From: an uncultured Planctomycetales bacterium | Lineage (GTDB): Bacteria; Omnitrophota; Gorgyraeia; Zapsychrales; JBDRMG01 | Direction of reading: 5' to 3' | NCBI GenBank assembly: GCA_964478715.1 | Contig: CAYZIY010000012.1 | Location: 1 to 52,931, forward strand | Length of the DNA: 52,931 bases | Shown here: one piece after another, positions 6,041 through 21,332 of the stretch | How the letters are laid out: the number at the start of each line of letters is the position of its first letter | Numbering within the stretch: position 1 is the first letter of the stretch | Made by a program: the position numbers and the translations under genes | The notes under the pieces: model-generated | Databases searched by the model: none | What the model saw: the letters and a program-made list of their open reading frames with translations, nothing else | Told to the model about the DNA's origin: nothing

Positions 6041-6632
6041 AAACAAGAAGAGCATGTCGTACTTGTTCTTTGAGATCATCCAAGTTTAATACATTAGCAA
6101 GTCTTTGATAAATAATTTCACGTGGTTTTGAACGTATCCCCTTTGCCTTATCCTGCTTTTCTAGAATTTGCAGTGCTTCTTGTCTCCACAACAATCGTGC
6201 TACGGAGATTCCTATTTGATTTGGATTATCTTCAGCGTTTCGAATTGTTTGAAAATATATTTTATGGTTAGTATCAATTTTTGCAACAGTGATACCCCAC
6301 CAGTCAGGGATAATATTTATGGCATGATATAAATGATGTTTTCCTACAACCAGAGTTAGCTTATCAAAAACCTTGTTGAATTCGTTCATTTGTTCCGGTA
6401 GTCGATCGAGTGTGTCGCTGTCGCTTTTGATTTCATATCCATGCATAACGCCATTAATGACAGCGATATCTATTCTTGCAGTCCCGTGTTTTACGCCCAA
6501 TTCTTCAAAAATTTCGGCGGGGCGTTGGCTTTGTCTGCGATAGTTTTCCAAATCTTTTCTTAAGGCTTCTCGGAGAGCTATGCGTATGTTTTTATCGTTT
6601 GTATAAAAAATGGCATTTTTAATATTTATCAT
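5988..6632 (-). CDS. sce7726-family protein (predicted restriction-endonuclease-like fold)
   Basis: FEELGVKHGTARIDIAVINGVMHGYEIKSDSDTLDRLPEQ matches my memory of the sce7726 family signature. It converges on and overlaps the Beta-protein gene. Confidence 0.65.
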   Translation of the reverse strand: MINIKNAIFYTNDKNIRIALREALRKDLENYRRQSQRPAEIFEELGVKHGTARIDIAVINGVMHGYEIKSDSDTLDRLPEQMNEFNKVFDKLTLVVGKHHLYHAINIIPDWWGITVAKIDTNHKIYFQTIRNAEDNPNQIGISVARLLWRQEALQILEKQDKAKGIRSKPREIIYQRLANVLNLDDLKEQVRHALLVSRGDWRADLPLALNGDL

Positions 6633-6795
6633 AATAAGAATATTTTAACATATTTCTATAGCAAAAAAATATTTTTATGTTTTGTTTAGCGCATTCATTT
6701 AGTGCAAGCTTTCAATTTGAAATTGATAGAGAACTGGGGAACGGTATAAGTTATTGTTATCGGGGGCAGATATAAACGTTACTAAAATCATAAAA

Positions 6796-6823
6796 TTGAC
6801 ATAATTTCGTTTTGGTGTAGAAT
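6796..6823 (+). promoter_or_regulatory. sigma70-like promoter for the HTH/SNF2/R-M operon
   Basis: TTGACA (6796-6801), a 16-nt spacer, then TAGAAT (6818-6823). It lies ~70 nt upstream of the ATG at 6894. Confidence 0.45.
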
Positions 6824-6893
6824 GGTAACTAATAATAAGTAAAAATAAGTACGATTTTTATGCTAAATCTCATAAACGTGGAGCTATTCCGAC

Positions 6894-7073
6894 ATGGAAA
6901 ATATAAGCCAATATCTCACAGTAAGGGAAGTCTCTGAAAAACTAGGCGTCACTGAAAAGTGGGTTCGCGATCTTATTCAGGCGAAGGAATTGAAAGCTGT
7001 AAAGATTGGAAAGTGGAGGATCAAACCCCAAGACCTTCAAACTTTCATAGACAGCAGATATAACAAAAAGTAA
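6894..7073 (+). CDS. small excisionase/MerR-type helix-turn-helix DNA-binding protein (59 aa; absent from the ORF track, presumably too short)
   Basis: My own translation is MENISQYLTVREVSEKLGVTEKWVRDLIQAKELKAVKIGKWRIKPQDLQTFIDSRYNKK. This is the classic HTH_17 pattern (LGV....V..li..g.l.a.kiG..wri). Confidence 0.7.
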   Translation: MENISQYLTVREVSEKLGVTEKWVRDLIQAKELKAVKIGKWRIKPQDLQTFIDSRYNKK

Positions 7074-7083
7074 GGGATAGTGT

Positions 7084-9408
7084 GTGGATCAAATATTAGA
7101 TAACAGAAAAAAAGGTAAAGTTGGAGATACGTTAAACGATCTTATCGTAGCAGGATCAAAACTGTCGTTCATTTCTTCATGCTTTACAATATATGCTTTT
7201 CAGGAGCTTAAAAATACGCTTAAAAGATGTGATAAACTTCGCTTCCTTTTCATTGAGCCTACCTTTATACGCAACAAACCATCAGAATCAAGAGAATATT
7301 ATATCGGTCGTTCAGAGAGGGAGAAAAGTCTTTCTGGCAGTGAATTTGAATTGAGACTTAAGAATGATTTGAATCAGTCCAGCATTGCCCGGGAATGCGC
7401 GGCATGGGTTAAGGAAAAGACTGAAATGCGATCTCTCGTGGATTCAAGTGTTGCATCAGTAAAAATTTATCACGGTGAGGATTCCAACGGAGAGCAGTTC
7501 GCGATTCAAGGCAATTCAGATTTTACCGCTGAGGGACTTGGGTTTACTCCTGCAACAAAACGAAACGTAAATACGCTTACAAAAAATCAAGAAACGACAC
7601 AAGGGCTATTGTCTTTTTTTGATGAGATATGGGATAACGATGAGCTTGTTGAAGATGTGAAAGATGAAGTTCTGTCTCGCATTTTAAGCCTCTATAAAGA
7701 AAACCCGCCAGAGTTCATGTATTTCGTCACGCTTTATAATATCTTTAAAGATTATTTAGAGAACCTCGACGAAGAAAGCATTATAAAATCTCGGACAGGT
7801 TTTAAAAATACACTTGTTTGGAACAAGCTTTATAAATTTCAGAAAGACGGCGTGCTGGGAGCAATCGACAAGCTGGAACGCTATAACGGTTGCATAATCG
7901 CCGATAGTGTAGGTCTTGGTAAAACGTTTGAAGCATTGGCTGTTATCAAATACTACGAATTACGAAATCACCGTGTACTCGTTTTATGTCCGAAAAAACT
8001 ACGGGAAAACTGGACAGTTTATACCATCAACGATAAGCGCAATACTTTAGCAGATGATCGTTTTGGATATGATGTTCTTAACCACACTGATTTAAGCCGA
8101 TATACAGGGGCTTCAGGTGAAATCAATCTTGAGACTTTAAATTGGAGCAACTACGACCTTATCGTTATTGATGAGTCGCATAATTTTAGAAACAACGATC
8201 CACGCAAAGACAGAGAGACACGTTACAGCCGTTTAATGAACCAGATCATCAAGCAGGGAGTTAAAACGAAAGTACTTATGCTTTCGGCAACGCCTGTAAA
8301 TAACCGCATGATGGATCTTAAAAATCAGGTGTTCTTTATTACGGAAGGAAACGATACAGCTTTTGATGATGATGGCATTTCCAGTATTGAGCAAACACTT
8401 AAGAAAGCGCAAACAATTTTTAATAGATGGACTGCATTACCTGAAGAAAAACGTACACTTGATAGCTTTTTGAATATGGTCAATTTTGATTATTTTAAAT
8501 TACTCGATACGATTACTATTGCCCGCTCAAGAAAACACATCGAGAAATATTACAATATTGCGGAAGTTGGAAAATTCCCGGATCGACTTAAGCCTATTAA
8601 TGTGAAGTCGGATATTGACCTGCAATCTGAATTCCCACCTTTAGAAGAGGTTAACAAAACTATCAGGCGGTTAACATTAGGCGCATATTCTCCTCTTAAA
8701 TATGTGCGGATGGATAAGCAGGAAGAATACAGTGAAAAATATGACATGGAAGTGCAGGGGGGAAGGTCGCGTTTCAGGCAGATAGATCGTGAAACGAGCT
8801 TGATTCATCTTATGCGTGTAAATCTTTTAAAGCGTATGGAAAGCTCAATATTTTCTTTTGGGATCACGGTGAATAATGTCCTTTCACAAATCAACGTGTT
8901 GCTTGAGAAAATCGAAAAAGGAGATTCTTTTATAGATGAATCTTTGGATATTCGGGATGTGAATATTGAGGATGACGAATTGCAGGACAAGCTGATCGGC
9001 AATAAAGTTAAAGTTCTCTTGCAGGATATTGATGTTGTGCGATGGAAGCAGGATTTAGAATATGACAAATCATTGTTGGAACAATTACTTGATGAATCTG
9101 AAAAAGTCTCTGCTAAAAGAGACGCAAAATTGGAAGACCTCAAGCGATTAATTAGTCGTAAGATGCAGTCTCCAATAAACAGGGATAATAAGAAAATTTT
9201 AATTTTTTCTGCCTTTGCTGATACCGCACAATATCTTTATGATAATTTGGCAGAGTGGGCAAAGAATGAATTTAATCTTTATTCCGCGCTTGTCACAGGT
9301 TCAGGCAGCAATAAGACAACCCTTCCAATAAAACAAAAAGATTTAGGTGCGATTCTTTCCTATTTTTCTCCGATATCCAAAGAAAAAAAATACCATATAT
9401 CCCGATGA
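7084..9408 (+). CDS. SNF2-family helicase, N-terminal fragment (frameshifted gene)
   Basis: SNF2 motifs are present: I (ADSVGLGKTFEALA), II (VIDESHNFRN) and III (MLSATPVNN). GTG start. The reading frame is lost at the A8 run 9383-9390. Confidence 0.85.
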   Translation: MDQILDNRKKGKVGDTLNDLIVAGSKLSFISSCFTIYAFQELKNTLKRCDKLRFLFIEPTFIRNKPSESREYYIGRSEREKSLSGSEFELRLKNDLNQSSIARECAAWVKEKTEMRSLVDSSVASVKIYHGEDSNGEQFAIQGNSDFTAEGLGFTPATKRNVNTLTKNQETTQGLLSFFDEIWDNDELVEDVKDEVLSRILSLYKENPPEFMYFVTLYNIFKDYLENLDEESIIKSRTGFKNTLVWNKLYKFQKDGVLGAIDKLERYNGCIIADSVGLGKTFEALAVIKYYELRNHRVLVLCPKKLRENWTVYTINDKRNTLADDRFGYDVLNHTDLSRYTGASGEINLETLNWSNYDLIVIDESHNFRNNDPRKDRETRYSRLMNQIIKQGVKTKVLMLSATPVNNRMMDLKNQVFFITEGNDTAFDDDGISSIEQTLKKAQTIFNRWTALPEEKRTLDSFLNMVNFDYFKLLDTITIARSRKHIEKYYNIAEVGKFPDRLKPINVKSDIDLQSEFPPLEEVNKTIRRLTLGAYSPLKYVRMDKQEEYSEKYDMEVQGGRSRFRQIDRETSLIHLMRVNLLKRMESSIFSFGITVNNVLSQINVLLEKIEKGDSFIDESLDIRDVNIEDDELQDKLIGNKVKVLLQDIDVVRWKQDLEYDKSLLEQLLDESEKVSAKRDAKLEDLKRLISRKMQSPINRDNKKILIFSAFADTAQYLYDNLAEWAKNEFNLYSALVTGSGSNKTTLPIKQKDLGAILSYFSPISKEKKYHISR

Positions 9409-10324
9409 TGGATTATCAATTGATATTCTTATCGGGACAGACTGTATTTCCGAAGGGCAAAATCTTCAAGATTGCGATTATGTTGTTAATTATGATATTC
9501 ATTGGAATCCGGTTCGAATTATTCAGCGTTTTGGAAGAATTGATCGTATAGGATCACGCAATGAATTAGTCCAGTTAGTTAATTTTTGGCCTAATTTAGA
9601 ACTTGATGAATATATCAATCTTGAAGCAAGAGTGACGGGACGTATGGTTCTTTTAGATGTATCCGCTACAGGCGAAGAAAATATTATTGATACGGAAAAA
9701 CAGAGCATGAATGATTTGGAATATCGCCGGAATCAGCTGAAACAGTTGCAAGAAGAAGTGGTAGATTTGGAAGAAATGTCTGGCGGTGTTTCTATTACAG
9801 ACCTTACGTTTAATGATTTCCGTATGGACTTAATTGAATATATGCGCATCAATAAAGAAGCCCTTGAGAAAGCCGCCTGTGGGATGTATGCGATAGCCCG
9901 AAGTGACAACAAGGATGATATTCCTGAGGGTGTCGTATTCTGTTTAAGGCATATTACAAGAGGGCGTGTTCCTGATGAGCATAACGCATTTTATCCGTAT
10001 TATTTGGTTTATGCAAAAAAGGATGGATTAATTTTACACTCATTTTTAGCGACAAAGAAAATATTGGATTTATATAAAAAGCTTTGCCTTGGGCACTCAG
10101 AAGTATTGGTTGATCTGGTTGACGCGTTTAATCAAAAAACAGATGATGGAAGAAAGATGCACAATTTTTCAGGACTGTTAGAGCATGCAATAACCAATAT
10201 TATTGGGAAAAAAGATGAAAAGGGCGTCGAGAGTCTTTTTTCAAAAGGGGGAACAACATTGTTGGATAATTCCTATCAGGGAAAAGATGATTTTGAGCTG
10301 ATATCTTTTTTAATCATTAAGTAG
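9347..10324 (+). CDS. SNF2-family helicase, C-terminal fragment (frameshifted gene; true coding continuation begins near 9384)
   Basis: Helicase C-terminal motifs IV-VI are present: ILIGTDCISEGQNLQDCDYVVNYDIHWNPVRIIQRFGRIDRIGS. Confidence 0.85.
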   Translation: MRFFPIFLRYPKKKNTIYPDDGLSIDILIGTDCISEGQNLQDCDYVVNYDIHWNPVRIIQRFGRIDRIGSRNELVQLVNFWPNLELDEYINLEARVTGRMVLLDVSATGEENIIDTEKQSMNDLEYRRNQLKQLQEEVVDLEEMSGGVSITDLTFNDFRMDLIEYMRINKEALEKAACGMYAIARSDNKDDIPEGVVFCLRHITRGRVPDEHNAFYPYYLVYAKKDGLILHSFLATKKILDLYKKLCLGHSEVLVDLVDAFNQKTDDGRKMHNFSGLLEHAITNIIGKKDEKGVESLFSKGGTTLLDNSYQGKDDFELISFLIIK

Positions 10325-10331
10325 AGGTGGC

Positions 10332-11090
10332 ATGAGAATACACGACTTCTTAGACGCAGTTGGTTTTCCTGATAGTGGGCGTATTGATAAGAAGATATTC
10401 AAGAAGGCTGTTTATGAAAATGCGGGACTATTTAAAAAACAGATAGAAGTTATAAAGAATGAAATAAATGATATTAGGTGGCTATATGTGTTAAAGCCGG
10501 GCACAATTAATATCCCGGTGTTAAAGAATGAAGATTTTGATTATGAAGAGATTCAAATTATAGGCATTACCCTGAAAGATGATAAAAAGAAGGATGTGGT
10601 TGCAAGCATTATTCAAAAGTGCATTCCGTATCCAGTTATTTTGCTCATAGAACATGAACAGAAGCTGGCTGTTTCTGTTGCCTCGAAACGAATCAATAAA
10701 GCAGATGTGTCGAAGAGCGTGATTGATGAGGAATACATTACGAATTGGATCTCAGCTTGTGCCGGTGATGCGTTTATTCAAAGCTTGAAGCCAGAGAAAC
10801 TTTCTTTTAAGAGTCTGTATGAGTTTTACGAGGATGTTATTGACCGGGTAAAGCTTTTTCTGTTGTGCGATTACAAGGATGATTTCAACTATGAGAAGAA
10901 AAAGGTTACAGCGCGATTATTCGCGGTATATCAAAAGATAAAAGAACTTGAAGAGAGTAAGCGTCAGTTGCAAAGGCAGATAAAAAAAGAGACTGACTTT
11001 GCCAAAAAGGTAAAGATGAATGTTGATATAAAGAAAACAAACAGTCTTATTGCCAACAACATAAAAAAACTGGGAAAAAGTTATGTTTAA
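10332..11090 (+). CDS. DUF4391 domain protein
   Basis: The IRWLYVLKPGTINI...IPYPVILLIEHEQK pattern and the position between an SNF2 helicase and a methyltransferase fit the usual DUF4391 context as I recall it. Confidence 0.7.
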   Translation: MRIHDFLDAVGFPDSGRIDKKIFKKAVYENAGLFKKQIEVIKNEINDIRWLYVLKPGTINIPVLKNEDFDYEEIQIIGITLKDDKKKDVVASIIQKCIPYPVILLIEHEQKLAVSVASKRINKADVSKSVIDEEYITNWISACAGDAFIQSLKPEKLSFKSLYEFYEDVIDRVKLFLLCDYKDDFNYEKKKVTARLFAVYQKIKELEESKRQLQRQIKKETDFAKKVKMNVDIKKTNSLIANNIKKLGKSYV

Positions 11091-13884
11091 AGAGGAATTT
11101 AAAAGAGGTTCTGAATGGAGAAGGTGGGATTTGCACGTTCACACCAAAGGGACGAATAAAAATGATCAATTTACAAGCGCTGACTTTAACGTCTTCTGCC
11201 AAACCCTCTTTAAAAAAGCTTTAGAGAAAAATATTTATGCTATAGGGGTTACAGATTATTTTTGCGTTAAAAATTATAAGCAGGTAAGAGAATATGTGGA
11301 TTCTATTGACACTAACGGAAGTTTTAACGATGAAGAAAAAAAGAAAATTAAGGGAATACTGCTCTTGCCAAATGTGGAATTGCGGATTCTTCCTGTTACG
11401 GATAGTGGTAGGCTTATAAATATTCATTGTATATTTAATCCAGATTATGTGAACTCACTTGATAATGATTTCTTTTCATCTATTGAATATTGCACAGGGG
11501 CTTCAAGGAAATTTAAGATGAATCAGACCGGAATTATTGAATTAGGCAAGCATTTAGATCCATCGCTCAGTAATTCATCTGAACAATATAAGAAAGGTTT
11601 AGATAATTTTGTTGTGTCTCATGAGAGCCTTCAGAAACTATATGATGAGAATGTCGATTTTAGGGAAAATACAATAATTTGTGTTAGTAATTCAAATAAT
11701 GATGGGGCTTCCGCTTTACAAAAACATTATGATCTTTTTGAAGGAAATGAACCGGGCAGTCTTGATGGTGTTCGAAAGGCAATTTATTGTTTATCGCAAA
11801 TGATATTGTCTGGTAATCCTGAAGACAGAGCTTATTTTCTCGGGAAAAAGGTTGATGCGCCTGATGTTGTTGTTCAAAAGTGTGGTTCATTGAAGCCTTG
11901 TATACATGGTTCAGATGCACATACAGAAAATAGACTTTTTGCTCCTGATGAAAATCGTTATTGCTGGATCAAAGCGGATCTGACGTTTGAAGGATTAAAG
12001 CAAGTAATCTATGAACCCGAAGACAGAGTTTGTATACAAGAATTAATTCCTGAAGAAAAACAAATATATCAGCTTATTGATTTTGGGAGTTTCAATGATA
12101 ATAATTTTATGCCAGAGAATATATTTTTTAATCAGAATTTAACCACAATTATAGGGGGTAAATCTACAGGGAAGTCTATCCTATTGAGAAATATTGCGCA
12201 GGCAATCGACCCAGATGAAGTTAGGAAACGCTTGTCGGATGTTAATCTTTCGGATTACAAAATTCAAGTCGATGATTTTCAGGTTGTATGGAAAGACTTT
12301 CAGCAGGGGCAGAAGAAGGGTAGCGAATTTAATAAGAAAATAATATACATTCCTCAGTCTTATCTGAATCGGCTTGTTGATAAAGAAGGTGAAATAAATG
12401 CTATAGACAAGATCATTGAAAATGTATTGAAGCAAGAAAAAGGTAATGTTTACGATAACCTTTTAGTTTTTGAAAAAGACAACAATCAGAAGATAGCAAA
12501 TGCAATCGCCAGCTTGTTCAATTTGATTGCGGAAGCAGATGAGCAAAAAGAGAAAATAAAAAATACGGGCGACAAAAAAGGGATCAAGACAGAAATTGAC
12601 AAGTTAGAAAAGGAAATATCTGAGCTTAAGAAAACGGCGGGGTTAAAAGATGAGGAAATCAAGCAATACGACGAATTTGTTAAGCAGATAAAAGAGCGTA
12701 CAGGTGAAATTGAAATAATAGAAAGTGATAAAACTGAGCTTGAAAAATTAAAACAACAAAGCCTTTTCGATGATCCGTATTTTGATGGTCTTTCTGATAA
12801 TCTGAAGACGGACATTGCATCTTCATATGAAAAACTGAAAAAGGAGTATAAAGAGAAGTGGGATGCTGAAATAGATAAGCGTATTTTGAATCAAGAAGCC
12901 AAAGTGAAACAAGCAAAGGAAGCGCTTAAAAAAATACAGAGTGATTTTAAACCGTTGCTAGAAAAAGCAAATAAAGTTAATGCATTAAATGAAAAAATTA
13001 AACAAATTGAAGTTCAGCAAAACAAACTGAAACAAATAGAAGCGGAAGAAAAAGTTGCAAAAAGCATTCAAGAGAGACAAGGAAAGACAATTGCTGATCT
13101 TTGTGTGATGCATGCTGCGTTTTACGAAAAATATAATGAAGCAAAAGATAAAATTCTTTCGCAAAATATCATATCAGGAGAGTTGTCTTTTGGCTTAAAT
13201 GTTGCCCATCGAACTCAATCTTTTCAAAAAGATTGCCTGAATGAGGTCTTTGATATGAGACAATTGCCTTCGGATTTATCTGAGTATAAATTCAGCACAG
13301 TAGAGGAGTTTAACGAGTCCATAAAGACAATTATAAATAATGTTATCAAAGATCAATTAGTTAGAAAAAAAGGATATTCAAACAAAGAAGCTTTGACAAA
13401 AATACTGCAAAATTGGTTTATTTTTGAATATCAAATCAAACAAGGCGGAGACGAGCTGTCATCAATGTCTCCAGGAAAGAAATCTTTCGTTTTACTAAAG
13501 CTACTAATAGAATTGGATTCAAGCAAATGCCCAATATTGTTGGATCAGCCTGAAGACGATCTTGATAACCGATCCATTTACTATGATCTTGTTAATTTTA
13601 TAAAGATGAAGAAAAAGGAGCGGCAAATTATAGTTGCCACCCATAATCCGAACTTAGTTGTTGGAGCTGATTCAGAGTGCGTTATTGTAGCGAATCAAAA
13701 CGGAGATAAGTCTAAAAATAAGCAGTATAAATTTGAATATGTTCAAGGAGCCTTGGAGAATACTTTTGAGGGATCAGATGAGGCGGTTCTTTATAAGCAA
13801 GGCATACAAGAACATGTGTGCGATATTTTAGAAGGCGGTAAAGAAGCTTTCACTAAACGTAAACAGAGGTATATGTCTAAATAA
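11083..13884 (+). CDS. PHP-domain + SMC/ABC-type ATPase with long coiled coil (TrlF-like AAA ATPase)
   Basis: N-terminal PHP signature is WDLHVHTKGT...GVTDY...HGSDAHT. Walker A is GGKSTGKS. A ~350-aa Lys/Glu-rich coiled coil follows. The signature/Walker B region is SPGKKSF...ILLDQPEDDLD and the H-loop is ATHNPNL. Confidence 0.75.
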   Translation: MFKEEFKRGSEWRRWDLHVHTKGTNKNDQFTSADFNVFCQTLFKKALEKNIYAIGVTDYFCVKNYKQVREYVDSIDTNGSFNDEEKKKIKGILLLPNVELRILPVTDSGRLINIHCIFNPDYVNSLDNDFFSSIEYCTGASRKFKMNQTGIIELGKHLDPSLSNSSEQYKKGLDNFVVSHESLQKLYDENVDFRENTIICVSNSNNDGASALQKHYDLFEGNEPGSLDGVRKAIYCLSQMILSGNPEDRAYFLGKKVDAPDVVVQKCGSLKPCIHGSDAHTENRLFAPDENRYCWIKADLTFEGLKQVIYEPEDRVCIQELIPEEKQIYQLIDFGSFNDNNFMPENIFFNQNLTTIIGGKSTGKSILLRNIAQAIDPDEVRKRLSDVNLSDYKIQVDDFQVVWKDFQQGQKKGSEFNKKIIYIPQSYLNRLVDKEGEINAIDKIIENVLKQEKGNVYDNLLVFEKDNNQKIANAIASLFNLIAEADEQKEKIKNTGDKKGIKTEIDKLEKEISELKKTAGLKDEEIKQYDEFVKQIKERTGEIEIIESDKTELEKLKQQSLFDDPYFDGLSDNLKTDIASSYEKLKKEYKEKWDAEIDKRILNQEAKVKQAKEALKKIQSDFKPLLEKANKVNALNEKIKQIEVQQNKLKQIEAEEKVAKSIQERQGKTIADLCVMHAAFYEKYNEAKDKILSQNIISGELSFGLNVAHRTQSFQKDCLNEVFDMRQLPSDLSEYKFSTVEEFNESIKTIINNVIKDQLVRKKGYSNKEALTKILQNWFIFEYQIKQGGDELSSMSPGKKSFVLLKLLIELDSSKCPILLDQPEDDLDNRSIYYDLVNFIKMKKKERQIIVATHNPNLVVGADSECVIVANQNGDKSKNKQYKFEYVQGALENTFEGSDEAVLYKQGIQEHVCDILEGGKEAFTKRKQRYMSK

Positions 13885-13901
13885 ATATAAAAGAGGTGAT
13901 T

Positions 13902-15860
13902 ATGGAAAAGCTTGACGGAAAAAGTAAGGATATAGTCAAAGATAATATTGACAAATTAAAGCAGTTATTTCCTGATGTGTTCACAGAAGACGGGATTGAT
14001 TTTGATGTCTTAAAAGACACGTTGGGGGAATACGTTGATGATAAGGAAGAACGGTATCAATTTGCGTGGCATGGAAAGACACAGGCGCGTCGTCTTGCGC
14101 AAACGCCATCGACAGGGACATTGCGGCCATGCAAAGAAGAAAGTGTGAATTGGGATAATACACAGAATCTATTTATTGAAGGTGACAACCTTGAAGTTCT
14201 TAAGTTGCTTCAGAAAGCGTATCATAAAGAAGTGAAGATGATTTATATTGATCCCCCTTATAATACAGGGAATGATTTTATTTATAAGGATGATTTTCGG
14301 GATAATATTAAAAATTATAAAAAATTAACAGGGCAGATAGATTCAGAGGGGATGGTTGTATCAACAAATTCAGAAACAAGTGGGCGCTATCATACGGATT
14401 GGTTAAATATGATATATCCTCGTCTTAAATTGGCAAGAAATTTATTAAAAGATGACGGAGTAATTTTTGTCAGTATAGACGATAATGAAATTGATAATTT
14501 GAAAAAAATATCCAATGAAATATTTGGAGAAGATAATTTCCTCGCTGTTGTTTCAAGAGTTGCAAAGACAACTAGTTTCCGTGGAAATTATTTTGCGCCA
14601 AGTAAAGATTATATTCTTTGCATCGCAAAAAATATCAGCGACTTAAAACCTTTTCAGGACGAAGTGAATGAATCGCAATTTGCGAAGATAGAGACCGAGG
14701 GTCAGCGAAAAGGGGAATATTACAGAGATGATATTGCGTTTTATTTATCTACTCTCGAAACTCGTCCTAATCAGCGATATTTTATTGAGTGTCCTGATGG
14801 CGAAAAAGTTATTCCTCCCGGGAATACATTTCCACCAGAAAAGCCTAAAGAGGGAGATGGTGTATGGCGTTGGAATCTAGAAAGTTTTAAAGAAAAAAAA
14901 CAATTTATTGTTTTTAAGAAATCCAAGCAATCCCCGTTATTAAATGATGAAGGAAAACAGGCTGGCTGGAACCTTTACACAAAAAGTTATCTTAATGACA
15001 AAAAAGAAAACGGAAACATTCCACGTGATTTCTGGGACGGCTTTTTAAATAGGCATGGGACATCAGAATTAAAGAAATTAGAAATACCATACAGTTTTCC
15101 TAAGCCTGTAGAAATGATAGAGTATTTGATGAAAATATCGAACGTAACTCAAAATGATATTGTTTTAGATTTTTTTGCTGGCTCCGCCACAACTGCTCAT
15201 GCAGTTATCAAGCTAAACTCATTGGATAAAAAAAATAGAAAATTTATAATGATACAAATACCCGAAGACTGTCAAGATAATGTGGAAGCATCAAAAGCGG
15301 GCTTCAAGAAATTAACTGATATAGGTAAAGAACGAGTACGTCGAGTTATTAAGAAAATAGAAGCTGAACAAGATGAGAAGAAAAAGCAAGGTAAGGGTGA
15401 GTTGTTTGAACAAAGTGAAACAGATACGGCAGATTTAGATCTAGGTTTTAAGGTCTTCAAACTAGACGCTTCCAATATTTCAACATGGGATCCTGATTTT
15501 GATACTGTACAGCAAGATTTATTGAGCGCTGTTGATAATATCAAAACAGATCGTAGTGAAGCAGATGTTCTTTATGAAATATTGCTTAAATATGGCTTGG
15601 ATTTAGCGGTTCCCATTGAAGAGCTTGAAATCAAAGGCAAGAAAGTGTTTGTTGTTGGCATGGGGGCTTTAATTGTTTGTCTGGCTTCTGATGTAACAGT
15701 AGAGATAGTTGAAGAAATTGCCAAACTAAAAGATAAATATCAGCCAGAGGTTGAGATGAGAGTTGTCTTTAAAGATAGCAGTTTTAAAGATGATGTCGTT
15801 AAAACCAATGCTGTCCAGATTCTCAAACAACACGGCATCGAAGATGTGAAGAGTATTTGA
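13902..15860 (+). CDS. mod: Type III-like DNA methyltransferase (Mod; N6-A/N4-C class, DPPY)
   Basis: Motif IV is IYIDPPYNTG and the AdoMet motif I is DFFAGSATTAHAV. ATG 13902 is preferred because the RBS AAGAGG lies 6 nt upstream. Confidence 0.9.
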   Translation: MEKLDGKSKDIVKDNIDKLKQLFPDVFTEDGIDFDVLKDTLGEYVDDKEERYQFAWHGKTQARRLAQTPSTGTLRPCKEESVNWDNTQNLFIEGDNLEVLKLLQKAYHKEVKMIYIDPPYNTGNDFIYKDDFRDNIKNYKKLTGQIDSEGMVVSTNSETSGRYHTDWLNMIYPRLKLARNLLKDDGVIFVSIDDNEIDNLKKISNEIFGEDNFLAVVSRVAKTTSFRGNYFAPSKDYILCIAKNISDLKPFQDEVNESQFAKIETEGQRKGEYYRDDIAFYLSTLETRPNQRYFIECPDGEKVIPPGNTFPPEKPKEGDGVWRWNLESFKEKKQFIVFKKSKQSPLLNDEGKQAGWNLYTKSYLNDKKENGNIPRDFWDGFLNRHGTSELKKLEIPYSFPKPVEMIEYLMKISNVTQNDIVLDFFAGSATTAHAVIKLNSLDKKNRKFIMIQIPEDCQDNVEASKAGFKKLTDIGKERVRRVIKKIEAEQDEKKKQGKGELFEQSETDTADLDLGFKVFKLDASNISTWDPDFDTVQQDLLSAVDNIKTDRSEADVLYEILLKYGLDLAVPIEELEIKGKKVFVVGMGALIVCLASDVTVEIVEEIAKLKDKYQPEVEMRVVFKDSSFKDDVVKTNAVQILKQHGIEDVKSI

Positions 15861-15876
15861 TGGCAAGAGGGAATAA

Positions 15877-16845
15877 ATGAACAGAACTGACATATTAAAG
15901 CTACATAAGAAACAGCTTAGCTTAGAGATTGATAGCATAAGACTTGCGATTCAACATAATGCCGTAAAAGGAGCAGAAGCCGAGCATGCTTTTAAAAGGT
16001 TGCTTAGAAAACACCTGCCACAAAGGTATAAGTTGGGTTCAGGTTTTGTTGTTAATGGAGAACGGAGTTCTCGTCAACATGATATTGTTGTCTATGATGA
16101 TTTGATGAACGCTCCAATTTATTTAGAGGAGTCGGCAGGGGCTTTTCTAGGAGGATCTGTGTATGGAGTGATTGAAACAACGATTGCAAAATTTGATAGC
16201 AAAAAATTAGAAGAAGACATAGAGAAAATTGGGCATTTAAGAAAAATATTTCCTGATAATAAAGTAAAATTTCAAAAAGTTGAATCAGTGCCTATTATGG
16301 ATATTGATGCGGCATTAGAAAGTAATGAATATTTGTTGCAAGATTCGGGTTGTTCGCCTGAAGATAGAAAACAAGAAATAAGAGAAAAATGGTTTACAGC
16401 GAGTGGTGCATTTATCGGTGGAGCAACGAAGTTAGAGACAGTTGCTTGCGAAGGCGAATTGTTAAATAATTTGAATTTGTTGGCGAGAGAAAGTAGAAGC
16501 TCAGAAGTTAGAGATAAGGAAATTGTGTCGCCACCACCTCCTCGTACTTATTTATGTGCCTTAAACGGGACAACATATAAAAGTATTGATTCATTAGCCA
16601 AGACGGCAAAACGTCTCACAAAAAAATATGGGGCGCATCTTCATGGATTATTTATTATGAATGACGATGGCAAGGATTGGTATTTATCGACAAAGGCTTA
16701 TTGTGATTATGATATTGAAACATATAAAAATGATGATGCGTTTTTCTATTTGTTGTATCGGATGAGACGTGCTTTTCAGGGCATGTTAGTCGGACAGTAT
16801 CCAGCAGCTGAAAGGAACTTAAATGGACAAGAGGAAAATACATGA
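15877..16845 (+). CDS. DUF6602-like protein (possible PD-(D/E)xK nuclease fold) inserted between mod and res
   Basis: The N-terminal KGAEAEHAFKRLLRKHLPQRYKLGSGFVVN...SRQHDIVVYD pattern is recalled from DUF6602. The C-terminal half was not recognised. Confidence 0.5.
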   Translation: MNRTDILKLHKKQLSLEIDSIRLAIQHNAVKGAEAEHAFKRLLRKHLPQRYKLGSGFVVNGERSSRQHDIVVYDDLMNAPIYLEESAGAFLGGSVYGVIETTIAKFDSKKLEEDIEKIGHLRKIFPDNKVKFQKVESVPIMDIDAALESNEYLLQDSGCSPEDRKQEIREKWFTASGAFIGGATKLETVACEGELLNNLNLLARESRSSEVRDKEIVSPPPPRTYLCALNGTTYKSIDSLAKTAKRLTKKYGAHLHGLFIMNDDGKDWYLSTKAYCDYDIETYKNDDAFFYLLYRMRRAFQGMLVGQYPAAERNLNGQEENT

Positions 16846-19817
16846 AATTAAAATTTGATGCGAACTTAGATTTTCAAAAAGAAGCAGCAGCTTCTATTGT
16901 AGATATATTTGAAGGGCAGGAGACGTGCCGGACTAATTTTACGGTTGCACCCATGCCTGAAAAAATGCTTTTTGATAATGATTTGGGCGTTGGAAATAAG
17001 CTCGAATTATTGCCGGATGAGTTATTATCAAATGTAAAGAAAATTCAGCTTAAGAATGGTCTCAAACCATCCTCTGGTTTGGATTCAATGAATTTTACGA
17101 TTGAGATGGAGACCGGAACCGGTAAGACATATGTGTATTTACGATCAATATTTGAACTCAACAAAAAATATGGATTTACAAAATTTGTTATTGTTGTTCC
17201 GTCCGTCGCGATCAAAGAAGGTGTTTATAAGTCGCTTCAGATCACAGAGGAGCATTTAAAAGCTCATTACGATAATATTCATTATGATTATTTTGTGTAC
17301 GATTCCCAGAAGCTTGAGCAGGTACGAAGCTTTGCTACTAACGATTATATCCAGATCATGGTTATCAATATCGATGCGTTTCGAAAAAGTTTTACCGATC
17401 CTTCCAAAATATCTAAAGCCAATGTTATTCATCGAACACACGATAAATTAAGCGGCAATAAGCCGATTGAATTTATTCAAGCAACAAATCCAATAGTGAT
17501 TATTGATGAGCCTCAAAGTGTAGATACGACCGATAAGTCAAAGGAAGCCATTGCGTCATTAAAACCGTTATGTATTCTTCGCTATTCCGCAACGCATCGC
17601 GAGCAATATAATTTGATGTATAAACTTGATTCAGTTGATGCCTATGAACGCAAGCTTGTTAAGCAAATTGAAGTAGCATCACTTCAGGTTAAAGATCAGC
17701 ATAATAAAGCTTATATTAAATTGCTTAAAGTTGATAATTCAAAAGGGGCATTAAGAGCGCGAATAGAATTTGATGTGCAAAAGACCGGGAAGATAAAACG
17801 AGACAAGAAGTGGGTCAAGCAGGGTGATGATCTGCATTCACTATCAGGCGGGCGAAATATTTATGAAGGATATATTATTAATGACATTTATTGTGAAAAG
17901 GGCAATGAGTATATTGATTTTACGAGCAATCCCGATGTGGTTTATTTAGAACAAGTTTTGGGAGACATGGACAGCCAAGAGTTTAAGCGTGTGCAGATAA
18001 GAAAAACAATTGAAGAGCATCTTGAAAAAGAGCTGCGTTTGCGTTCAAAAGGGATTAAAGTTTTAAGCCTTTTCTTTATTGATAAAGTCGCGAATTATCG
18101 CTTTTACGATGATGAAGGTGAGCCGCAAAAAGGGAAGTACGCGAAGACTTTTGAAGAAGAGTATCGTAGCCTTATAAAAAAGCCCAAATATAAAACACTT
18201 TTTGAAAATATTGACGTAGAAAGTTCGGCTGCTGAAGTTCATGATGGGTATTTTGCGATTGATAAAAAGAAAACAAAGGGTGGTAAAGAATACGAAGAAT
18301 ATAAGGATACAAAAGGTAATACTGCGTCAGATGAAAGTGCGTATAACACTATTATGAAAAACAAAGAGTGGCTTTTAAGTTTTGAGTGTCCCTTAAAGTT
18401 TATTTTTTCTCATTCAGCGCTGAAAGAGGGGTGGGATAATCCGAATGTTTTTCAAATATGCACGCTTAATGAAACTAGCTCCGAAATCAAAAAGCGTCAG
18501 GAAATTGGGCGCGGATTAAGGATTGCAGTAAATCAAGACGGAGATCGTGTTCATGGGTTCGATGTAAACACCTTAACAGTCATGGCAAATGAGTCGTATG
18601 AAGATTTTGCCGATGCTTTACAAAAAGAAATTGAAAAAGAGGAAGGTATCAGATTTGGCGTTGTTGAAGATCATACTTTTGCAAACATTGTCGTGCTGGA
18701 TGAAAACGAAAACGAACATTACTTAGGCGTTGAGACTTCTGAGAATATCTGGAAGTGTTTGCTCGAAAATAAGTATATAAATGAACATGGCAAGGTTCTG
18801 GAATTATTGAAACAGGATTTGAATGACAATTCGGTTAAGATTCCTGAAGAGTATACACAGGCTCAGCCACAAATATTGAAGATTCTAAAAAAGATATCCG
18901 GCAAGCTCAATATCAAGAACGCCGATGATAAAAGAAAAGTGTCTTTGAATAAGGCGGTGTATTTAAGTGAAGATTTTAAAGCCCTCTGGGATCGGATTAA
19001 ATATAGAACAACATACAGAGTTAACTTCAACGTCGAGGAGCTGATAGACGCCTGTTCAAGGGAAATAAAAGATAATCTTATCGTGGGACGGGCAAAGATC
19101 GTCTACCAAAAAGGTAAAACAGAGATCACAAAGGGTGGTGTCATTATTAATGAAGTCAGGGAATCAATGACTGTTTATGGTGCTCGTGATTATGTTTTGC
19201 CTGATATCGTTAGTTATCTTCAAAATGAAACAAATTTAACCCGTAGAACAATTGTGGATATATTGATTAAGAGTGACCGATTAGAGGATTTCAAGGCGAA
19301 CCCTCAGAAATACATTGATGAGGTAAGCCAAATCATTAGACGGACTATGCGGCAGTTTATTGTTGATGGAATTAAATATCAGAAGATTGGCGAGACCTAT
19401 TTCTATGCTCAAGAGTTGTTTGAGTCGGAAGAATTGTACGGGTATTTATCGAAAAATATGATTGAAAGCGCCAAATCAATTTATGACCATGTTGTTTATG
19501 ATTCGGATATTGAATCGAGTTTTGCTAAGGAATTTGAAAAAAGTGATGATGTAAAGCTATACGCAAAGTTGCCGGGATGGTTTAAAGTTGAAACGCCACT
19601 TGGAAGTTATAACCCAGACTGGGCTGTTGTGATTGAAAAAGATGGGGAAGAGAGGCTCTATTTTGTAGTCGAATCAAAGGGAAGTTTATTTACTGATGCT
19701 TTACGTCCAACAGAAAAAGCCAAAATTGACTGTGGGAAAGAACATTTTAAAGCATTAAAAACAGATGTGAGATTTGCAGTTGCCAATAGCTATGAAGGTT
19801 TTTGTGATAATTTATGA
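16842..19817 (+). CDS. res: Type III restriction endonuclease Res subunit (DEAD/DEAH helicase + C-terminal nuclease)
   Basis: Motif I is METGTGKTYVY, motif II is IIDEPQS and motif VI is QEIGRGLRI. The C-terminal PD-(D/E)xK is PDWAVVIEK...FVVESKG. There is an ATGA overlap with the upstream gene. Confidence 0.9.
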   Translation: MKLKFDANLDFQKEAAASIVDIFEGQETCRTNFTVAPMPEKMLFDNDLGVGNKLELLPDELLSNVKKIQLKNGLKPSSGLDSMNFTIEMETGTGKTYVYLRSIFELNKKYGFTKFVIVVPSVAIKEGVYKSLQITEEHLKAHYDNIHYDYFVYDSQKLEQVRSFATNDYIQIMVINIDAFRKSFTDPSKISKANVIHRTHDKLSGNKPIEFIQATNPIVIIDEPQSVDTTDKSKEAIASLKPLCILRYSATHREQYNLMYKLDSVDAYERKLVKQIEVASLQVKDQHNKAYIKLLKVDNSKGALRARIEFDVQKTGKIKRDKKWVKQGDDLHSLSGGRNIYEGYIINDIYCEKGNEYIDFTSNPDVVYLEQVLGDMDSQEFKRVQIRKTIEEHLEKELRLRSKGIKVLSLFFIDKVANYRFYDDEGEPQKGKYAKTFEEEYRSLIKKPKYKTLFENIDVESSAAEVHDGYFAIDKKKTKGGKEYEEYKDTKGNTASDESAYNTIMKNKEWLLSFECPLKFIFSHSALKEGWDNPNVFQICTLNETSSEIKKRQEIGRGLRIAVNQDGDRVHGFDVNTLTVMANESYEDFADALQKEIEKEEGIRFGVVEDHTFANIVVLDENENEHYLGVETSENIWKCLLENKYINEHGKVLELLKQDLNDNSVKIPEEYTQAQPQILKILKKISGKLNIKNADDKRKVSLNKAVYLSEDFKALWDRIKYRTTYRVNFNVEELIDACSREIKDNLIVGRAKIVYQKGKTEITKGGVIINEVRESMTVYGARDYVLPDIVSYLQNETNLTRRTIVDILIKSDRLEDFKANPQKYIDEVSQIIRRTMRQFIVDGIKYQKIGETYFYAQELFESEELYGYLSKNMIESAKSIYDHVVYDSDIESSFAKEFEKSDDVKLYAKLPGWFKVETPLGSYNPDWAVVIEKDGEERLYFVVESKGSLFTDALRPTEKAKIDCGKEHFKALKTDVRFAVANSYEGFCDNL

Positions 19818-19905
19818 GTACGTATTTTAAATATTCTTCCATAGATACAGTTAAAAAATTTGAGTAATGTAATATTAAAAGAAGTCAGTACTCAGTAAAT
19901 ATATT

Positions 19906-20646
19906 ATGTGTAAATATAAAGAATTATATGATATTTCTGTGCAGGTTCTTGGTGAAGAACAGCAGCGATTCAACCGAATGGATGAAAAAGCAGTTAAATA
20001 TTTTTCTGTTATTTCGTTCTTGATTGGGGTTTGCGTTTTTTTTGGCAAACAGTTAATAGCAGATAACATTCCACCTGCTAATTATTCTGAGTGGACGATT
20101 TTAATTTTTGGAAGTGTTTCTTTTTTGTCTCTATTTCTTGCATGGATATTTTGTTTTCTGGCGATTAAGCAACACGTTATAGAAAAAATGCCTTTAAATG
20201 ATGATATGATAAAATTTTTTCATGAAAACCGTTTGATCGATATTCACTATGCACTAACCAAGGCTAATAAAAAAGCACTAGCTATTAACCGAAAGAAGAC
20301 GGACAAGAAATCAAAGTTGTTAGCTAATGCGTATCGATCTATCCTAGTTTCAGTAATTACGTTAGTGTTTTTTGTGATTTTATGGAGCGGTTCTAAATGG
20401 CATAACGCTTATGAAAGTAAATTTATTAGTAAAGGAGATTGTATAATGACCGAAGAAAAAAAAGAAGAACAGAAACCCAAAGAAGATGTAGTCGCTCCTA
20501 ATTATGATCGACTAACAGCAAACGATCAAAAACCCAAAGAAGATGTGGTGGCTCCAAATTATGATCAAATTACTGAGGGGTATGATCCTGTAACGAAAAA
20601 AAATATCGAGAAGGGCGTCATTGATAAGAATGATACTTCTAAGTAG
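19906..20646 (+). CDS. three-pass membrane protein (SLATT/Pycsar-effector-like topology, tentative) with a 13-aa motif repeated twice near the C-terminus (19-aa period)
   Basis: An N-terminal amphipathic helix ending RMDEKAVKYF is followed by hydrophobic segments (VISFLIGVCVFF, ILIFGSVSFLSLFLAWIFCFLAI, ILVSVITLVFFVILW). QKPKEDVVAPNYD occurs twice. Confidence 0.55.
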   Translation: MCKYKELYDISVQVLGEEQQRFNRMDEKAVKYFSVISFLIGVCVFFGKQLIADNIPPANYSEWTILIFGSVSFLSLFLAWIFCFLAIKQHVIEKMPLNDDMIKFFHENRLIDIHYALTKANKKALAINRKKTDKKSKLLANAYRSILVSVITLVFFVILWSGSKWHNAYESKFISKGDCIMTEEKKEEQKPKEDVVAPNYDRLTANDQKPKEDVVAPNYDQITEGYDPVTKKNIEKGVIDKNDTSK

Positions 20647-20689
20647 TTTTGTTGGCAACATCATTTAAAATTTAGTAGAGGATAATGTC

Positions 20690-21316: not shown

Positions 21317-21332
21317 ATGGGAGGAAAATATT

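What the first reader, a model, noticed from the sequence alone, without database searches (positions are those of the whole stretch)
6894..19817. Nine-ORF (eight-gene) operon: Type III Mod/Res embellished with HTH, SNF2 helicase, DUF4391, PHP-ATPase and a DUF6602-like gene
From a sigma70-like promoter (6796-6823), nine ORFs (eight genes, because the SNF2 gene is split in two) run co-directionally with tiny gaps or overlaps. In order they are a 59-aa HTH, SNF2 helicase, DUF4391, PHP+ABC ATPase (8-nt overlap), Mod (DPPY), a DUF6602-like gene and Res (ATGA overlap). Mod plus Res alone would be an ordinary Type III R-M. SNF2 plus DUF4391 is a recurrent add-on. From memory, helicase+methylase+ATPase sets were named Hma by the PADLOC authors. 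I am not aware of a characterised system that combines all of these modules. In particular, I know of none with an ATPase carrying a PHP phosphoesterase domain and an extra nuclease-like gene wedged between mod and res.
Basis: partly seen in the sequence, partly recalled or inferred. Interest (0 to 1): 0.7.

Follow-up and report, generated by a model that had tools for sequence, protein, structure and literature searches.

The report
Type III restriction operon carrying cargo genes
The nine co-directional reading frames are real, but comparison with relatives shows a widespread five-gene restriction-modification scaffold (small regulator, SNF2 helicase, DUF4391, methylase, nuclease) into which two separately mobile defence genes have been slotted, rather than one new eight-part machine.

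Summary
Nine ORFs run on the + strand from 6894 to 19817 with gaps of -8 to +16 nt, and the domain calls are essentially right. The interpretation as one embellished system is only partly supported.

About 24 related loci keep the order HTH – SNF2 – DUF4391 – Mod – Res, from E. coli, Shewanella, Enterococcus and Bacillus cereus plasmids to an archaeal plasmid. Many carry nothing else. The three junctions between scaffold genes are cargo slots. Relatives hold Abi_2, DUF1016/YhcG, SIR2+HerA, Schlafen/HATPase_c_4, GmrSD or RhuM genes there.

The window holds a TrlF-family PHP–ABC ATPase (NCBIfam NF045780, a distant Ppl relative) in the DUF4391|Mod slot. It holds a NucC-fold DUF6602 protein in the Mod|Res slot. 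The same TrlF gene (91% nt identity, confined to the ORF) sits elsewhere beside a serine recombinase. More distant relatives lie inside Type I hsd operons. All three relatives of the DUF6602 protein whose context I examined abut Type I or Type I-like R-M genes.

The SNF2 gene is broken by a +1 frameshift in an A8 run, whereas 17 relatives are intact.

DUF4391 is a large family with a confidently predicted fold that has no solved relative. Verdict: a new variant of a known kind, of moderate interest.

The parts
6796..6823 (+). Sigma-70-like promoter candidate (TTGACA-16-TAGAAT) ahead of the operon
   Evidence: It is the best-scoring site in 6000-21000 (11 of 12). It is a consensus match only, and such sites are not enriched over shuffles.
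6894..7073 (+). 59-aa HTH_17 / excisionase-family DNA-binding protein. It is the leader gene of the scaffold and a presumed operon regulator.
   Evidence: Pfam HTH_17 E 9e-15. TIGR01764 42.8 bits against a cut-off of 28.8. A small HTH gene heads the same scaffold in L104, L105, L116, L119 and L115. It also heads other R-M operons, L099 and L101.
7084..10324 (+). SNF2-family helicase gene (scaffold), broken into ORFs 7084-9408 and 9347-10324 by a +1 frameshift in the A8 run at 9383-9390. The N-terminal region of about 200 aa is PLD-like without an HxK motif.
   Evidence: The repaired 1079-aa product is 46-85% identical to intact 1076-1133-aa (stop-to-stop frame) relatives. PADLOC model 'HKD+Snf2' scores 271 + 165 bits.
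10332..11090 (+). DUF4391 protein (scaffold): an alpha/beta domain plus a C-terminal helical hairpin. Function unknown. It always follows the SNF2 gene.
   Evidence: Pfam E 9e-54. AF2 pLDDT 88.5. No PDB or BFVD fold match. There are 2027 representatives of 50% clusters. Synteny is shown.
11083..13884 (+). Cargo 1: a TrlF-family protein. It has an N-terminal PHP phosphoesterase and an ABC/SMC-type ATPase with a long insert between Walker A (359-365) and the signature, Walker B and H-loop motifs (795-857).
   Evidence: NCBIfam NF045780 599.5 bits against a cut-off of 350. The profile hits SMC5 heads. It is absent from the same slot in L095, L096, L104, L105, L109 and others. It is 91% nt-identical to a copy in another context.
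13896..15860 (+). Type III Mod methyltransferase (scaffold). It has DPPY at residue 119 and DFFAGSATT at about residue 425. The target-recognition region at about 14540-15434 is variable.
   Evidence: PADLOC MTase_III 690 bits, full length. Pfam N6_N4_Mtase.
15877..16845 (+). Cargo 2: a DUF6602 protein with a full-length NucC fold plus an insertion of about 80 aa. The canonical E-x-K is E100-x-T102 in all 19 relatives.
   Evidence: Pfam DUF6602. PADLOC PD_DExK and NucC. PDB NucC by sequence and by fold, TM 0.62-0.74. In relatives this slot holds other genes or none.
16842..19817 (+). Type III Res subunit (scaffold). It has SF2 motifs GTGKT, DEPQ and SAT, and a C-terminal PD...ESK nuclease.
   Evidence: PADLOC REase_III 1153 bits, full length. 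Pfam ResIII plus RE_endonuc. PRK15483 aligns 1-981.

Best explanation
The locus is a composite with two layers.

Layer 1 is a conserved five-gene scaffold: a small HTH regulator, an SNF2-family translocase, DUF4391, Type III Mod and Type III Res. Mod methylates host DNA at its recognition site. Mod-Res complexes cut unmethylated incoming DNA by the ATP-dependent Type III mechanism; this is inferred from family membership and intact motifs. The SNF2-DUF4391 pair is a constant accessory of this Res/Mod lineage. I infer, weakly, that it is a nuclease-less DNA motor plus adaptor that works with Mod-Res on unmethylated DNA.

Layer 2 is cargo. The three junctions between scaffold genes act as slots where unrelated defence genes are inserted and co-transcribed from the scaffold promoter.

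In this window the DUF4391|Mod slot holds a TrlF-family PHP-ABC ATPase. By analogy with its distant relative Ppl, it is likely an NTP-gated metal-dependent exonuclease that attacks phage DNA ends.

The Mod|Res slot holds an R-M-linked NucC-fold DUF6602 protein. It is likely a DNA nuclease or nuclease-derived partner with a non-canonical active site.

The cargo genes are movable units that do not need this scaffold, so the operon is a miniature defence island nested in an R-M operon. In this particular copy the SNF2 gene carries a frameshift. The accessory motor is therefore probably off, or phase-variable, while Mod, Res and both cargo genes look intact.
For: Scaffold:
- The order SNF2-DUF4391-Mod-Res is invariant in 20 loci analysed by tblastn. 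It recurs in Enterococcus faecium pQL50 and B. cereus p30090_1.
- Bare versions occur in Shewanella, E. coli and Vibrio plasmids and in a metagenome contig.

Cargo slots:
- Abi_2 and a Schlafen/Fic gene in L103.
- SIR2_2 plus DUF87/HerA in L104.
- DUF1016/YhcG, three small genes and Schlafen/HATPase_c_4 in L105.
- Schlafen/HATPase_c_4 in L090, beside a Res N-terminus 97% identical to the window's.
- GmrSD in L094.
- A 245-aa gene in an archaeal plasmid.
- RhuM in L118.

Cargo edges: DNA homology between the window and L104/L105 covers the scaffold genes. It breaks at 10741/11035 to 13878 and at 15861 to 16842.

TrlF mobility:
- A 93% aa / 91% nt copy has homology confined to 11107-13865. It sits between a different HTH gene and a serine recombinase.
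- A 54% relative sits inside hsdM-hsdS-x-TrlF-hsdR.
- Of 80 GTDB loci, almost none have the scaffold. The commonest neighbours are HsdR (11 loci), HsdS (8) and HsdM (7).

DUF6602 relatives (56-57% identical) abut Type I or Type I-like R-M genes in 3 of 3 contexts.

Functional analogies from the literature:
- Ppl is a PHP 3'-5' ssDNA exonuclease gated by NTPs (PMC12904381).
- Damona is a single-gene DUF6602 defence (bioRxiv 10.1101/2024.07.02.601686).

Catalytic motifs of Mod, Res and TrlF are intact.
Against: - No experiment bears on any of these genes.
- TrlF has stayed in the same slot, with a 4-8-nt start/stop overlap with DUF4391, in three lineages. In these TrlF is 64-100% identical to the window's, while DUF4391 and Mod have diverged to about 50-64%. 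That is longer co-residence than expected for a casual passenger.
- The DUF6602 relatives were never seen away from an R-M operon. This hints at functional dependence rather than autonomy.
- The NucC-like protein lacks the canonical catalytic lysine, so nuclease activity is not assured.
- The role assigned to SNF2-DUF4391 is a guess. DUF4391 has no fold relative.
- The slot census rests on about 24 loci, not on a systematic survey.
Confidence: 0.72

Rival explanations
1. Guard model. The cargo genes are not independent defences. They are latent effectors held silent by the R-M complex and released when a phage anti-restriction protein inhibits it. PrrC works this way inside the Type Ic EcoprrI locus.
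For: [quoted passage not shown] It has an ABC-type NTPase regulatory domain (PMC1484252, PMC12707154). TrlF likewise joins an ABC ATPase to a nuclease-type domain, and its commonest neighbours are R-M subunits. The DUF6602 relatives sit directly against a helicase-type R or M gene in 4 of 4 contexts, often with overlapping stop and start codons.
Against: Most of the 80 GTDB TrlF loci show no detectable R-M neighbour. A 93%-identical TrlF sits in a unit made only of an HTH gene, TrlF and a serine recombinase. Other occupants of the same slots, SIR2-HerA and GmrSD, belong to defence families that act on their own (for BrxU, PMC12707154). No physical interaction has been tested.
Confidence: 0.25
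2. Integrated machine. All eight genes form one multi-subunit Type III-derived system in which the helicase, DUF4391, PHP-ATPase and extra nuclease are required parts.
For: There is one promoter-like site, no convincing internal terminator, and tight or overlapping junctions. The arrangement SNF2-DUF4391-TrlF-Mod recurs in L089 and L090.
Against: Bare scaffolds and scaffolds with different cargo are common. L090 keeps TrlF but replaces the DUF6602 gene. Both cargo families live in other systems. The exact full gene string was found nowhere else.
Confidence: 0.06
3. Decaying locus. The frameshifted SNF2 gene marks a system that is being lost, so the operon as a whole may be non-functional in this host.
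For: A +1 frameshift in the A8 run at 9383-9390 splits the helicase between its two RecA lobes. No ribosome-binding site is evident ahead of the second ORF. The same lesion is in an assembly from a second read set (L001). Other scaffold copies are also damaged: an IS element in Res in L114, a truncated Res in L116 and a frameshifted GmrSD in L094.
Against: All other genes are full-length with intact catalytic motifs. A single-base change in a homopolymer is reversible and is the classic route to phase variation in Type III systems (established knowledge). Mod-Res does not need SNF2 in L118.
Confidence: 0.15

Closest known systems
Type III restriction-modification (EcoP15I / StyLTI type)
   Same: Mod has the motif order DPPY, then TRD, then the FxGxG-like motif. 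Res has SF2 motifs and a C-terminal PD-(D/E)xK nuclease. mod lies upstream of res. The PADLOC MTase_III and REase_III models match at full length (690 and 1153 bits).
   Different: This lineage is nearly always preceded by an HTH gene, an SNF2 helicase and DUF4391. mod and res are separated by a cargo gene. The NCBIfam PRK15483 score is below its cut-off (370.8 against 564).
PrrC / EcoprrI (an anticodon nuclease embedded in a Type Ic hsd operon); also BrxU embedded in a BREX locus
   Same: In each case a second, unrelated defence gene sits inside a restriction or BREX operon (PMC1484252, PMC12707154). TrlF, like PrrC, carries an ABC-type NTPase module.
   Different: Here the host operon is Type III plus SNF2/DUF4391. 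There are three slots with many alternative occupants. The cargo proteins are unrelated to PrrC. No latency or activation has been shown.
Ppl (single-gene PHP plus NTPase anti-phage exonuclease)
   Same: Both have a PHP phosphoesterase at the N-terminus and a P-loop NTPase at the C-terminus. The C-terminal half is homologous (NCBIfam Ppl E 4e-27, PADLOC Ppl E 1e-20).
   Different: The score is far below the Ppl cut-off (94.5 against 1000), and only residues 469-929 align. The protein belongs to the separate TrlF family. Activity has not been tested.
NucC (cA3-activated CBASS / type III CRISPR endonuclease) and Damona (DUF6602 single-gene defence)
   Same: The whole NucC fold is present (Foldseek probability 1.0, TM 0.62-0.74). 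The Pfam DUF6602 domain is the one reported in Damona (bioRxiv 10.1101/2024.07.02.601686).
   Different: There is no cyclase in the operon. The E-x-K lysine is an invariant threonine. There is an insertion of about 80 aa. Genomic linkage is to R-M genes, not to CBASS. The Damona sequence was not compared.
DISARM class 1 and Hma (helicase-methylase systems)
   Same: Each pairs an SNF2-type helicase with an adenine methylase in a defence operon.
   Different: DrmD models score 94 bits against a cut-off of 610. There is no DrmA or DrmB (DUF1998). HmaA matches only the generic Helicase_C motif. DUF4391 matches no PADLOC v2 model.

Membership tests
Type III R-M | Mod is a beta-class N6/N4 methyltransferase with motif IV (DPPY) before the TRD and motif I after it | tested here: met
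   DPPY is at residue 119 and DFFAGSATT at about residue 425. N6_N4_Mtase E 3.5e-33. MTase_III 690 bits over 3-654.
Type III R-M | Res has SF2 helicase motifs plus a C-terminal PD-(D/E)xK endonuclease | tested here: met
   GTGKT(92), DEPQ(222), SAT(249), and NPDW...VVESK in the last 70 residues. ResIII plus RE_endonuc. REase_III 1153 bits.
Type III R-M | Equivalog-level match to the curated EcoP15I/StyLTI-type Res model | tested here: inconclusive
   PRK15483 aligns 1-981 but scores 370.8 against a cut-off of 564.
Type III R-M | ATP-dependent cleavage needing two inversely oriented unmethylated sites, with hemimethylation by Mod | not testable with these tools
   This needs biochemistry and a methylome.
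TrlF family (NCBIfam NF045780) | Full-length match above the curated cut-off | tested here: met
   599.5 bits against 350, residues 8-930 on profile positions 1-943 of 944.
Ppl | Full-length match to the Ppl_antiphage equivalog, and a PHP domain with metal ligands | tested here: not met
   94.5 bits against a cut-off of 1000, C-terminal half only. The PHP ligands are present, but Pfam PHP hits only 3 of 14 family members and not the window protein.
Hma (PADLOC helicase-methylase-ATPase) | HmaA, HmaB and HmaC models match the helicase, methylase and ATPase | tested here: not met
   HmaA hits only residues 24-79 of the C-terminal SNF2 fragment. No Hma model is among the ATPase's five hits or the methylase's 25 listed hits out of 33.
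DISARM | DrmA plus DrmB (DUF1998) core, with DrmD at equivalog score | tested here: not met
   DrmD scores 93.8 against 610. No DUF1998 gene is in the operon.
MADS | MAD1 HTH at equivalog score, plus the other mad genes | tested here: not met
   MAD1 scores 24.1 bits against a cut-off of 80. No other mad model hit.
NucC-type effector | NucC fold | tested here: met
   The top 14 Foldseek PDB hits are all NucC, E 1e-9 to 3e-7, TM (target-normalised) 0.62-0.74.
NucC-type effector | Catalytic D...E-x-K triad, and a linked cyclic-oligonucleotide synthase | tested here: not met
   D69 and E100 are conserved, but the lysine position is an invariant T102. There is no cyclase in the operon, and relatives sit in R-M loci.
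SNF2-DUF4391-Mod-Res scaffold (defined here) | The four genes in this order on one strand | tested here: met
   The window, plus 20 loci and L119/L120.
PrrC-like R-M guard | The effector is silenced by the R-M complex and activated by an anti-restriction protein | not testable with these tools
   Only the genomic embedding is shown.

The most novel reading that the evidence does not exclude
HTH-SNF2-DUF4391-Mod-Res is a distinct, uncharacterised class of ATP-dependent restriction system in which DUF4391 (a fold with no solved relative) couples a nuclease-less SNF2 motor to Type III Mod-Res. Its three inter-gene junctions are dedicated cargo sites. Some occupants there, namely TrlF and the lysine-less NucC-fold protein, would be guard effectors that fire when phages disable the restriction complex. 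This would generalise the PrrC principle from one Type I locus to a widespread platform.
Probability: 0.2. Interest if true: 0.75.

Novelty: new variant of a known kind. Interest (0 to 1): 0.5.

Why it matters
If the scaffold-plus-cargo reading is right, operons of this type should not be scored as single systems. Each slot is a place to look for new defence genes, much like the hotspots in P2/P4 prophages or integron cassettes.

Three tractable unknowns stand out:
- What the constant SNF2-DUF4391 pair adds to Type III restriction. DUF4391 has about 2000 representatives of 50% clusters and no known fold.
- Whether R-M-linked proteins such as TrlF and the NucC-fold DUF6602 protein act alone or guard the restriction enzyme.
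- Whether the A-tract in SNF2 gives phase-variable control.

None of this is established here. The window's own copy is ordinary in the sense that every gene belongs to an existing family.

Tried and rejected
- **Hma, DISARM, MADS, Zorya, Dpd and BREX helicase models.** They gave only generic helicase-motif hits, far below cut-offs.
- **Literature searches.** 'TrlF' gave only spectroscopy papers and unrelated hits. 'DUF4391' appears in two papers and only in a list in the one read. 'DUF4391' plus 'SNF2' gave none. So no characterisation of the scaffold was found in the open library.
- **A constant partner gene for TrlF.** Clustering of neighbours in 80 GTDB loci found none. The largest neighbour families are Type I subunits, in at most 11 loci.
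- **Fold relatives of DUF4391.** There is no match with E <= 0.001 in the PDB or BFVD. A PD-(D/E)xK reading of its conserved E73/K119/K123/D125 residues was dropped because the strand order does not fit and Foldseek found no nuclease.
- **An active PLD (HKD) nuclease in the SNF2 N-terminus.** PADLOC's model name suggests one. An alignment of 18 proteins shows no HxK, and the His is only partly conserved.
- **Metagenome scan with the DUF4391 alignment.** It gave only 8 loci.
- **Repeats at cargo edges.** There is only a weak 31-nt, 71% direct repeat (11079-11109 and 13867-13897) around TrlF. It is most likely the similar AT-rich ribosome-binding regions.
- **Internal terminators.** None is convincing on the + strand.

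Full report
**1. The observation**

The nine ORFs are present exactly as listed, all on the + strand. Junctions are tight: +10, +7, -8, +11, +16 and -4 nt. Each start has a purine-rich ribosome-binding site.

- HTH_17 / excisionase-type leader.
- SNF2-family helicase, split in two.
- DUF4391.
- A large ATPase.
- A Type III Mod with DPPY.
- A DUF6602 protein.
- A Type III Res with the RE_endonuc domain.

The promoter-like site at 6796-6823 is the best consensus match in the region. Such sites are not enriched overall, and no convincing + strand terminator lies inside the operon.

**2. The split SNF2 gene**

The two ORFs overlap at an A8 run (9383-9390). Deleting one A gives a 1079-aa protein. 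Its sequence through the lesion (FSPISKEK-NTIYPDD) matches intact relatives residue for residue. Those relatives have shorter or interrupted A runs at the same codons.

All 17 scaffold helicases I extracted are intact, with stop-to-stop frames of 1076-1133 aa. The same frameshift is in a Logan assembly of SRR7048228. That assembly differs from the window by one Mod residue, so a random assembly error is unlikely.

I cannot tell phase variation from a fixed lesion without reads.

**3. What the ATPase is**

It is a full-length member of the curated NCBIfam family 'TrlF family AAA-like ATPase' (599.5 bits, cut-off 350). It is only a distant relative of Ppl: 94.5 bits against 1000, C-terminal half only.

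An alignment of 14 members (A1) shows these invariant features:
- HxH (H18, H20), E99, H115 and DxH (D278, H280) in the first 300 residues.
- Walker A, GGKSTGKS (359-365).
- After an insert of about 400 residues, an ABC signature-like SPGKKS, Walker B LLDQPEDD and an H-loop THNPN.

Pfam PHP hits 3 of the 14 members, not the window's. The profile matches SMC5 heads in the PDB.

**4. TrlF is a movable gene**

The family is large: more than 5700 proteins at E <= 1e-10 among the scored candidates.

In 80 genomes from many phyla carrying a relative, almost none have the SNF2, DUF4391, Mod or Res genes nearby. No neighbour family is constant. The commonest neighbours are HsdR (11 loci), HsdS (8) and HsdM (7).

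Specific contexts are:
- A 93%-identical copy between a different small HTH gene and a large serine recombinase, next to a Type I system (L083). The same HTH-TrlF-recombinase unit is in L003.
- A 54% relative inside hsdM-hsdS-x-TrlF-hsdR (L087).
- 64% and 90% relatives in the window's position, after DUF4391 and before Mod (L089 and L090).

At the DNA level the window and L083 share 90.8% identity over 11107-13865 only. That is inside the TrlF ORF and nowhere else.

**5. The scaffold**

DUF4391 homologues on plasmids (48 records) and in metagenomes always sit in the string SNF2 - DUF4391 - Mod - Res.

Examples with nothing else:
- Shewanella baltica pSBAL67801.
- E. coli pHH194M-140K.
- Vibrio vulnificus pVV20-8B-2.
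- L109.

The same string, with DUF4391 too diverged for tblastn, is in Enterococcus faecium pQL50 and B. cereus p30090_1. It is also in an archaeal plasmid. A small HTH gene usually leads.

A profile search finds 2027 representatives of 50% clusters for DUF4391.

One close Res relative (64% identical, Thiodictyon) has Mod-RhuM-Res with no SNF2 or DUF4391. So Mod-Res can exist without the accessory pair.

**6. The slots**

- SNF2|DUF4391 slot: Abi_2 (L103), DUF1016/YhcG (L105), and about 1 kb in L112.
- DUF4391|Mod slot: TrlF (window, L089, L090), SIR2_2 plus DUF87/HerA (L104), three genes including a Schlafen AlbA_2 protein (L105), a 245-aa gene (L117), and about 1.8 kb in L113.
- Mod|Res slot: the DUF6602 gene (window), Schlafen/HATPase_c_4 (L090 and L105), a frameshifted GmrSD-like gene (L094), and RhuM (L118).

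In L090 the first 59 Res residues are 97% identical to the window's, although the gene before them is different.

Nucleotide homology between the window and L104/L105 follows the scaffold genes. It stops at the cargo edges and at the central Mod region 14540-15434, the expected target-recognition domain.

The exact full string of the window was not found elsewhere.

**7. The DUF6602 protein**

Only 27 relatives were found by the word-based search. In all three contexts I examined, the gene directly follows an R-M gene:
- A two-gene Type I-like system, with an HsdR-like gene plus a fused M-S gene (L097 and L099).
- A canonical Type I operon (L101).

By sequence its first 130 residues match NucC. 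An AF2 model (pLDDT 80) matches NucC over the whole NucC chain (TM 0.62-0.74), with an insertion of about 80 residues.

NucC's E-x-K aligns with E100-x-T102, and T102 is invariant in 19 sequences. The active site is therefore non-canonical. K110 and K117 are invariant and might substitute, but that is inference.

A DUF6602 protein, Damona, is reported as a single-gene defence (bioRxiv 10.1101/2024.07.02.601686).

**8. DUF4391 and the SNF2 N-terminus**

The AF2 model of DUF4391 is confident (pLDDT 88.5, pTM 0.87). It shows an alpha/beta domain followed by long C-terminal helices. Neither the PDB nor BFVD holds a relative.

DUF4391 is the fastest-diverging scaffold protein: 25-64% identity where SNF2 is 46-85% and Res 36-85%.

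The SNF2 N-terminal region of about 200 residues resembles the PLD-like head implied by PADLOC's 'HKD+Snf2' model. It has no HxK motif in any of 18 sequences. I therefore read the protein as a motor without its own nuclease.

**9. How it most likely works**

Shown:
- Gene content, order and motif integrity.
- Family membership.
- Interchangeability of cargo.

Inferred from family knowledge:
- Mod methylates its site, and Mod-Res restricts unmethylated DNA with ATP.
- The HTH protein regulates the operon.
- TrlF acts like Ppl, a PHP 3'-5' exonuclease gated by nucleotide binding and DNA ends (PMC12904381).
- The DUF6602 protein acts on DNA.

Speculative:
- SNF2-DUF4391 is recruited to unmethylated DNA with Mod-Res.
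- Cargo exchange happens by recombination between conserved scaffold flanks.

The main rival for the cargo is a PrrC-like guard role (PMC1484252; PMC12707154). The strict R-M linkage of the DUF6602 family makes that role plausible for that gene in particular.

**10. Context**

The operon lies in a low-GC (33-38%) defence island. Its neighbours are:
- A PDC-S01 ATPase (1365-2633).
- PD-Lambda-2 B and C homologues (3664-6040).
- A four-gene operon ending in an E1-E2-JAB fusion (19906-24781).
- A tyrosine integrase (25553-26821).
- ICE-like genes: RadC, ArdA, a coupling-protein-like ATPase and ArdC-like.

The nearest relatives of several genes are in Omnitrophota MAGs and JGI metagenomes.

**11. 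Verdict**

The feature is real, and the domain annotation is right. It is not an already named subtype, but it is also not one new eight-gene system.

It is a member of a widespread, uncharacterised SNF2-DUF4391-associated Type III lineage carrying two interchangeable defence genes, with its helicase frameshifted.

Interest is moderate. The value lies in the scaffold-with-slots pattern and in DUF4391, not in this particular combination.

Noticed in passing
window 9383-9390: An A8 homopolymer carries the +1 frameshift that splits the SNF2 gene. Relatives have A5-A7 or interrupted runs at the same SKEK codons. It could be a phase-variation switch.
   Followed up: partly
window 1365-2633 and 2814-6040: Upstream defence genes. 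An AAA_14/DUF4143 ATPase matches PADLOC PDC-S01 (339 bits). An HTH/M78 peptidase plus 'Beta protein' pair matches PD-Lambda-2 B (485 bits) and C (118 bits). The 168-aa ParB-HTH ORF before them could be component A but matches no model.
   Followed up: partly
window 19906-24781: A downstream four-gene operon: a 246-aa unknown, a 208-aa Csx27-like membrane protein, a 356-aa LmuA/PDC-M48B-like protein and a 791-aa E1-E2 plus JAB fusion (Cap2/Cap3-like). No cyclase was recognised. It is separated from Res by 88 nt with no terminator-like site.
   Followed up: no
window 25553-34173: A tyrosine integrase (25553-26821), then RadC, DUF2958, ArdA, a HerA/TrwB-like ATPase and an ArdC-like gene. The defence island abuts an integrative or conjugative element. 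GC rises from about 0.35 to about 0.42 near 27.5 kb.
   Followed up: partly
window 14540-15434: The central part of Mod has no nucleotide homology to relatives whose Mod ends are 77-80% identical. It is the likely swapped target-recognition domain.
   Followed up: partly
window 11079-11109 and 13867-13897: An imperfect 31-nt direct repeat (71%) brackets the TrlF gene, ending in AAAAGAGGT at both copies. It may be only similar ribosome-binding regions.
   Followed up: no
L083 9816-14454 and L003 3721-8167: A small HTH gene, TrlF and a large serine recombinase recur as a unit. This suggests TrlF also travels on a recombinase-borne element.
   Followed up: partly
L104 10775-14151: A SIR2_2 plus DUF87 (HerA) pair is embedded between DUF4391 and Mod of an otherwise similar scaffold. 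ArdA and a serine recombinase lie upstream.
   Followed up: no
L118 9002-15009 (Thiodictyon pTs485): Mod - RhuM family gene - Res, with Res 64% identical to the window's but no SNF2 or DUF4391 upstream. A Wadjet/JetABCD-like set of DUF3375, DUF4194, an ATP-binding protein and DUF3322 lies next door.
   Followed up: no
L097 8969-13125, L099 8973-9671: In the Type I-like loci the DUF6602 gene is itself followed by RadC and, in L097, by SIR2_2 plus DUF87. This is further stacking of defence genes downstream of R-M operons.
   Followed up: no
window 5988-6632 (- strand): A 213-aa ORF on the opposite strand, just upstream of the operon, matches the PADLOC model 'cll' (E 1e-24). It has no Pfam domain.
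   Followed up: no
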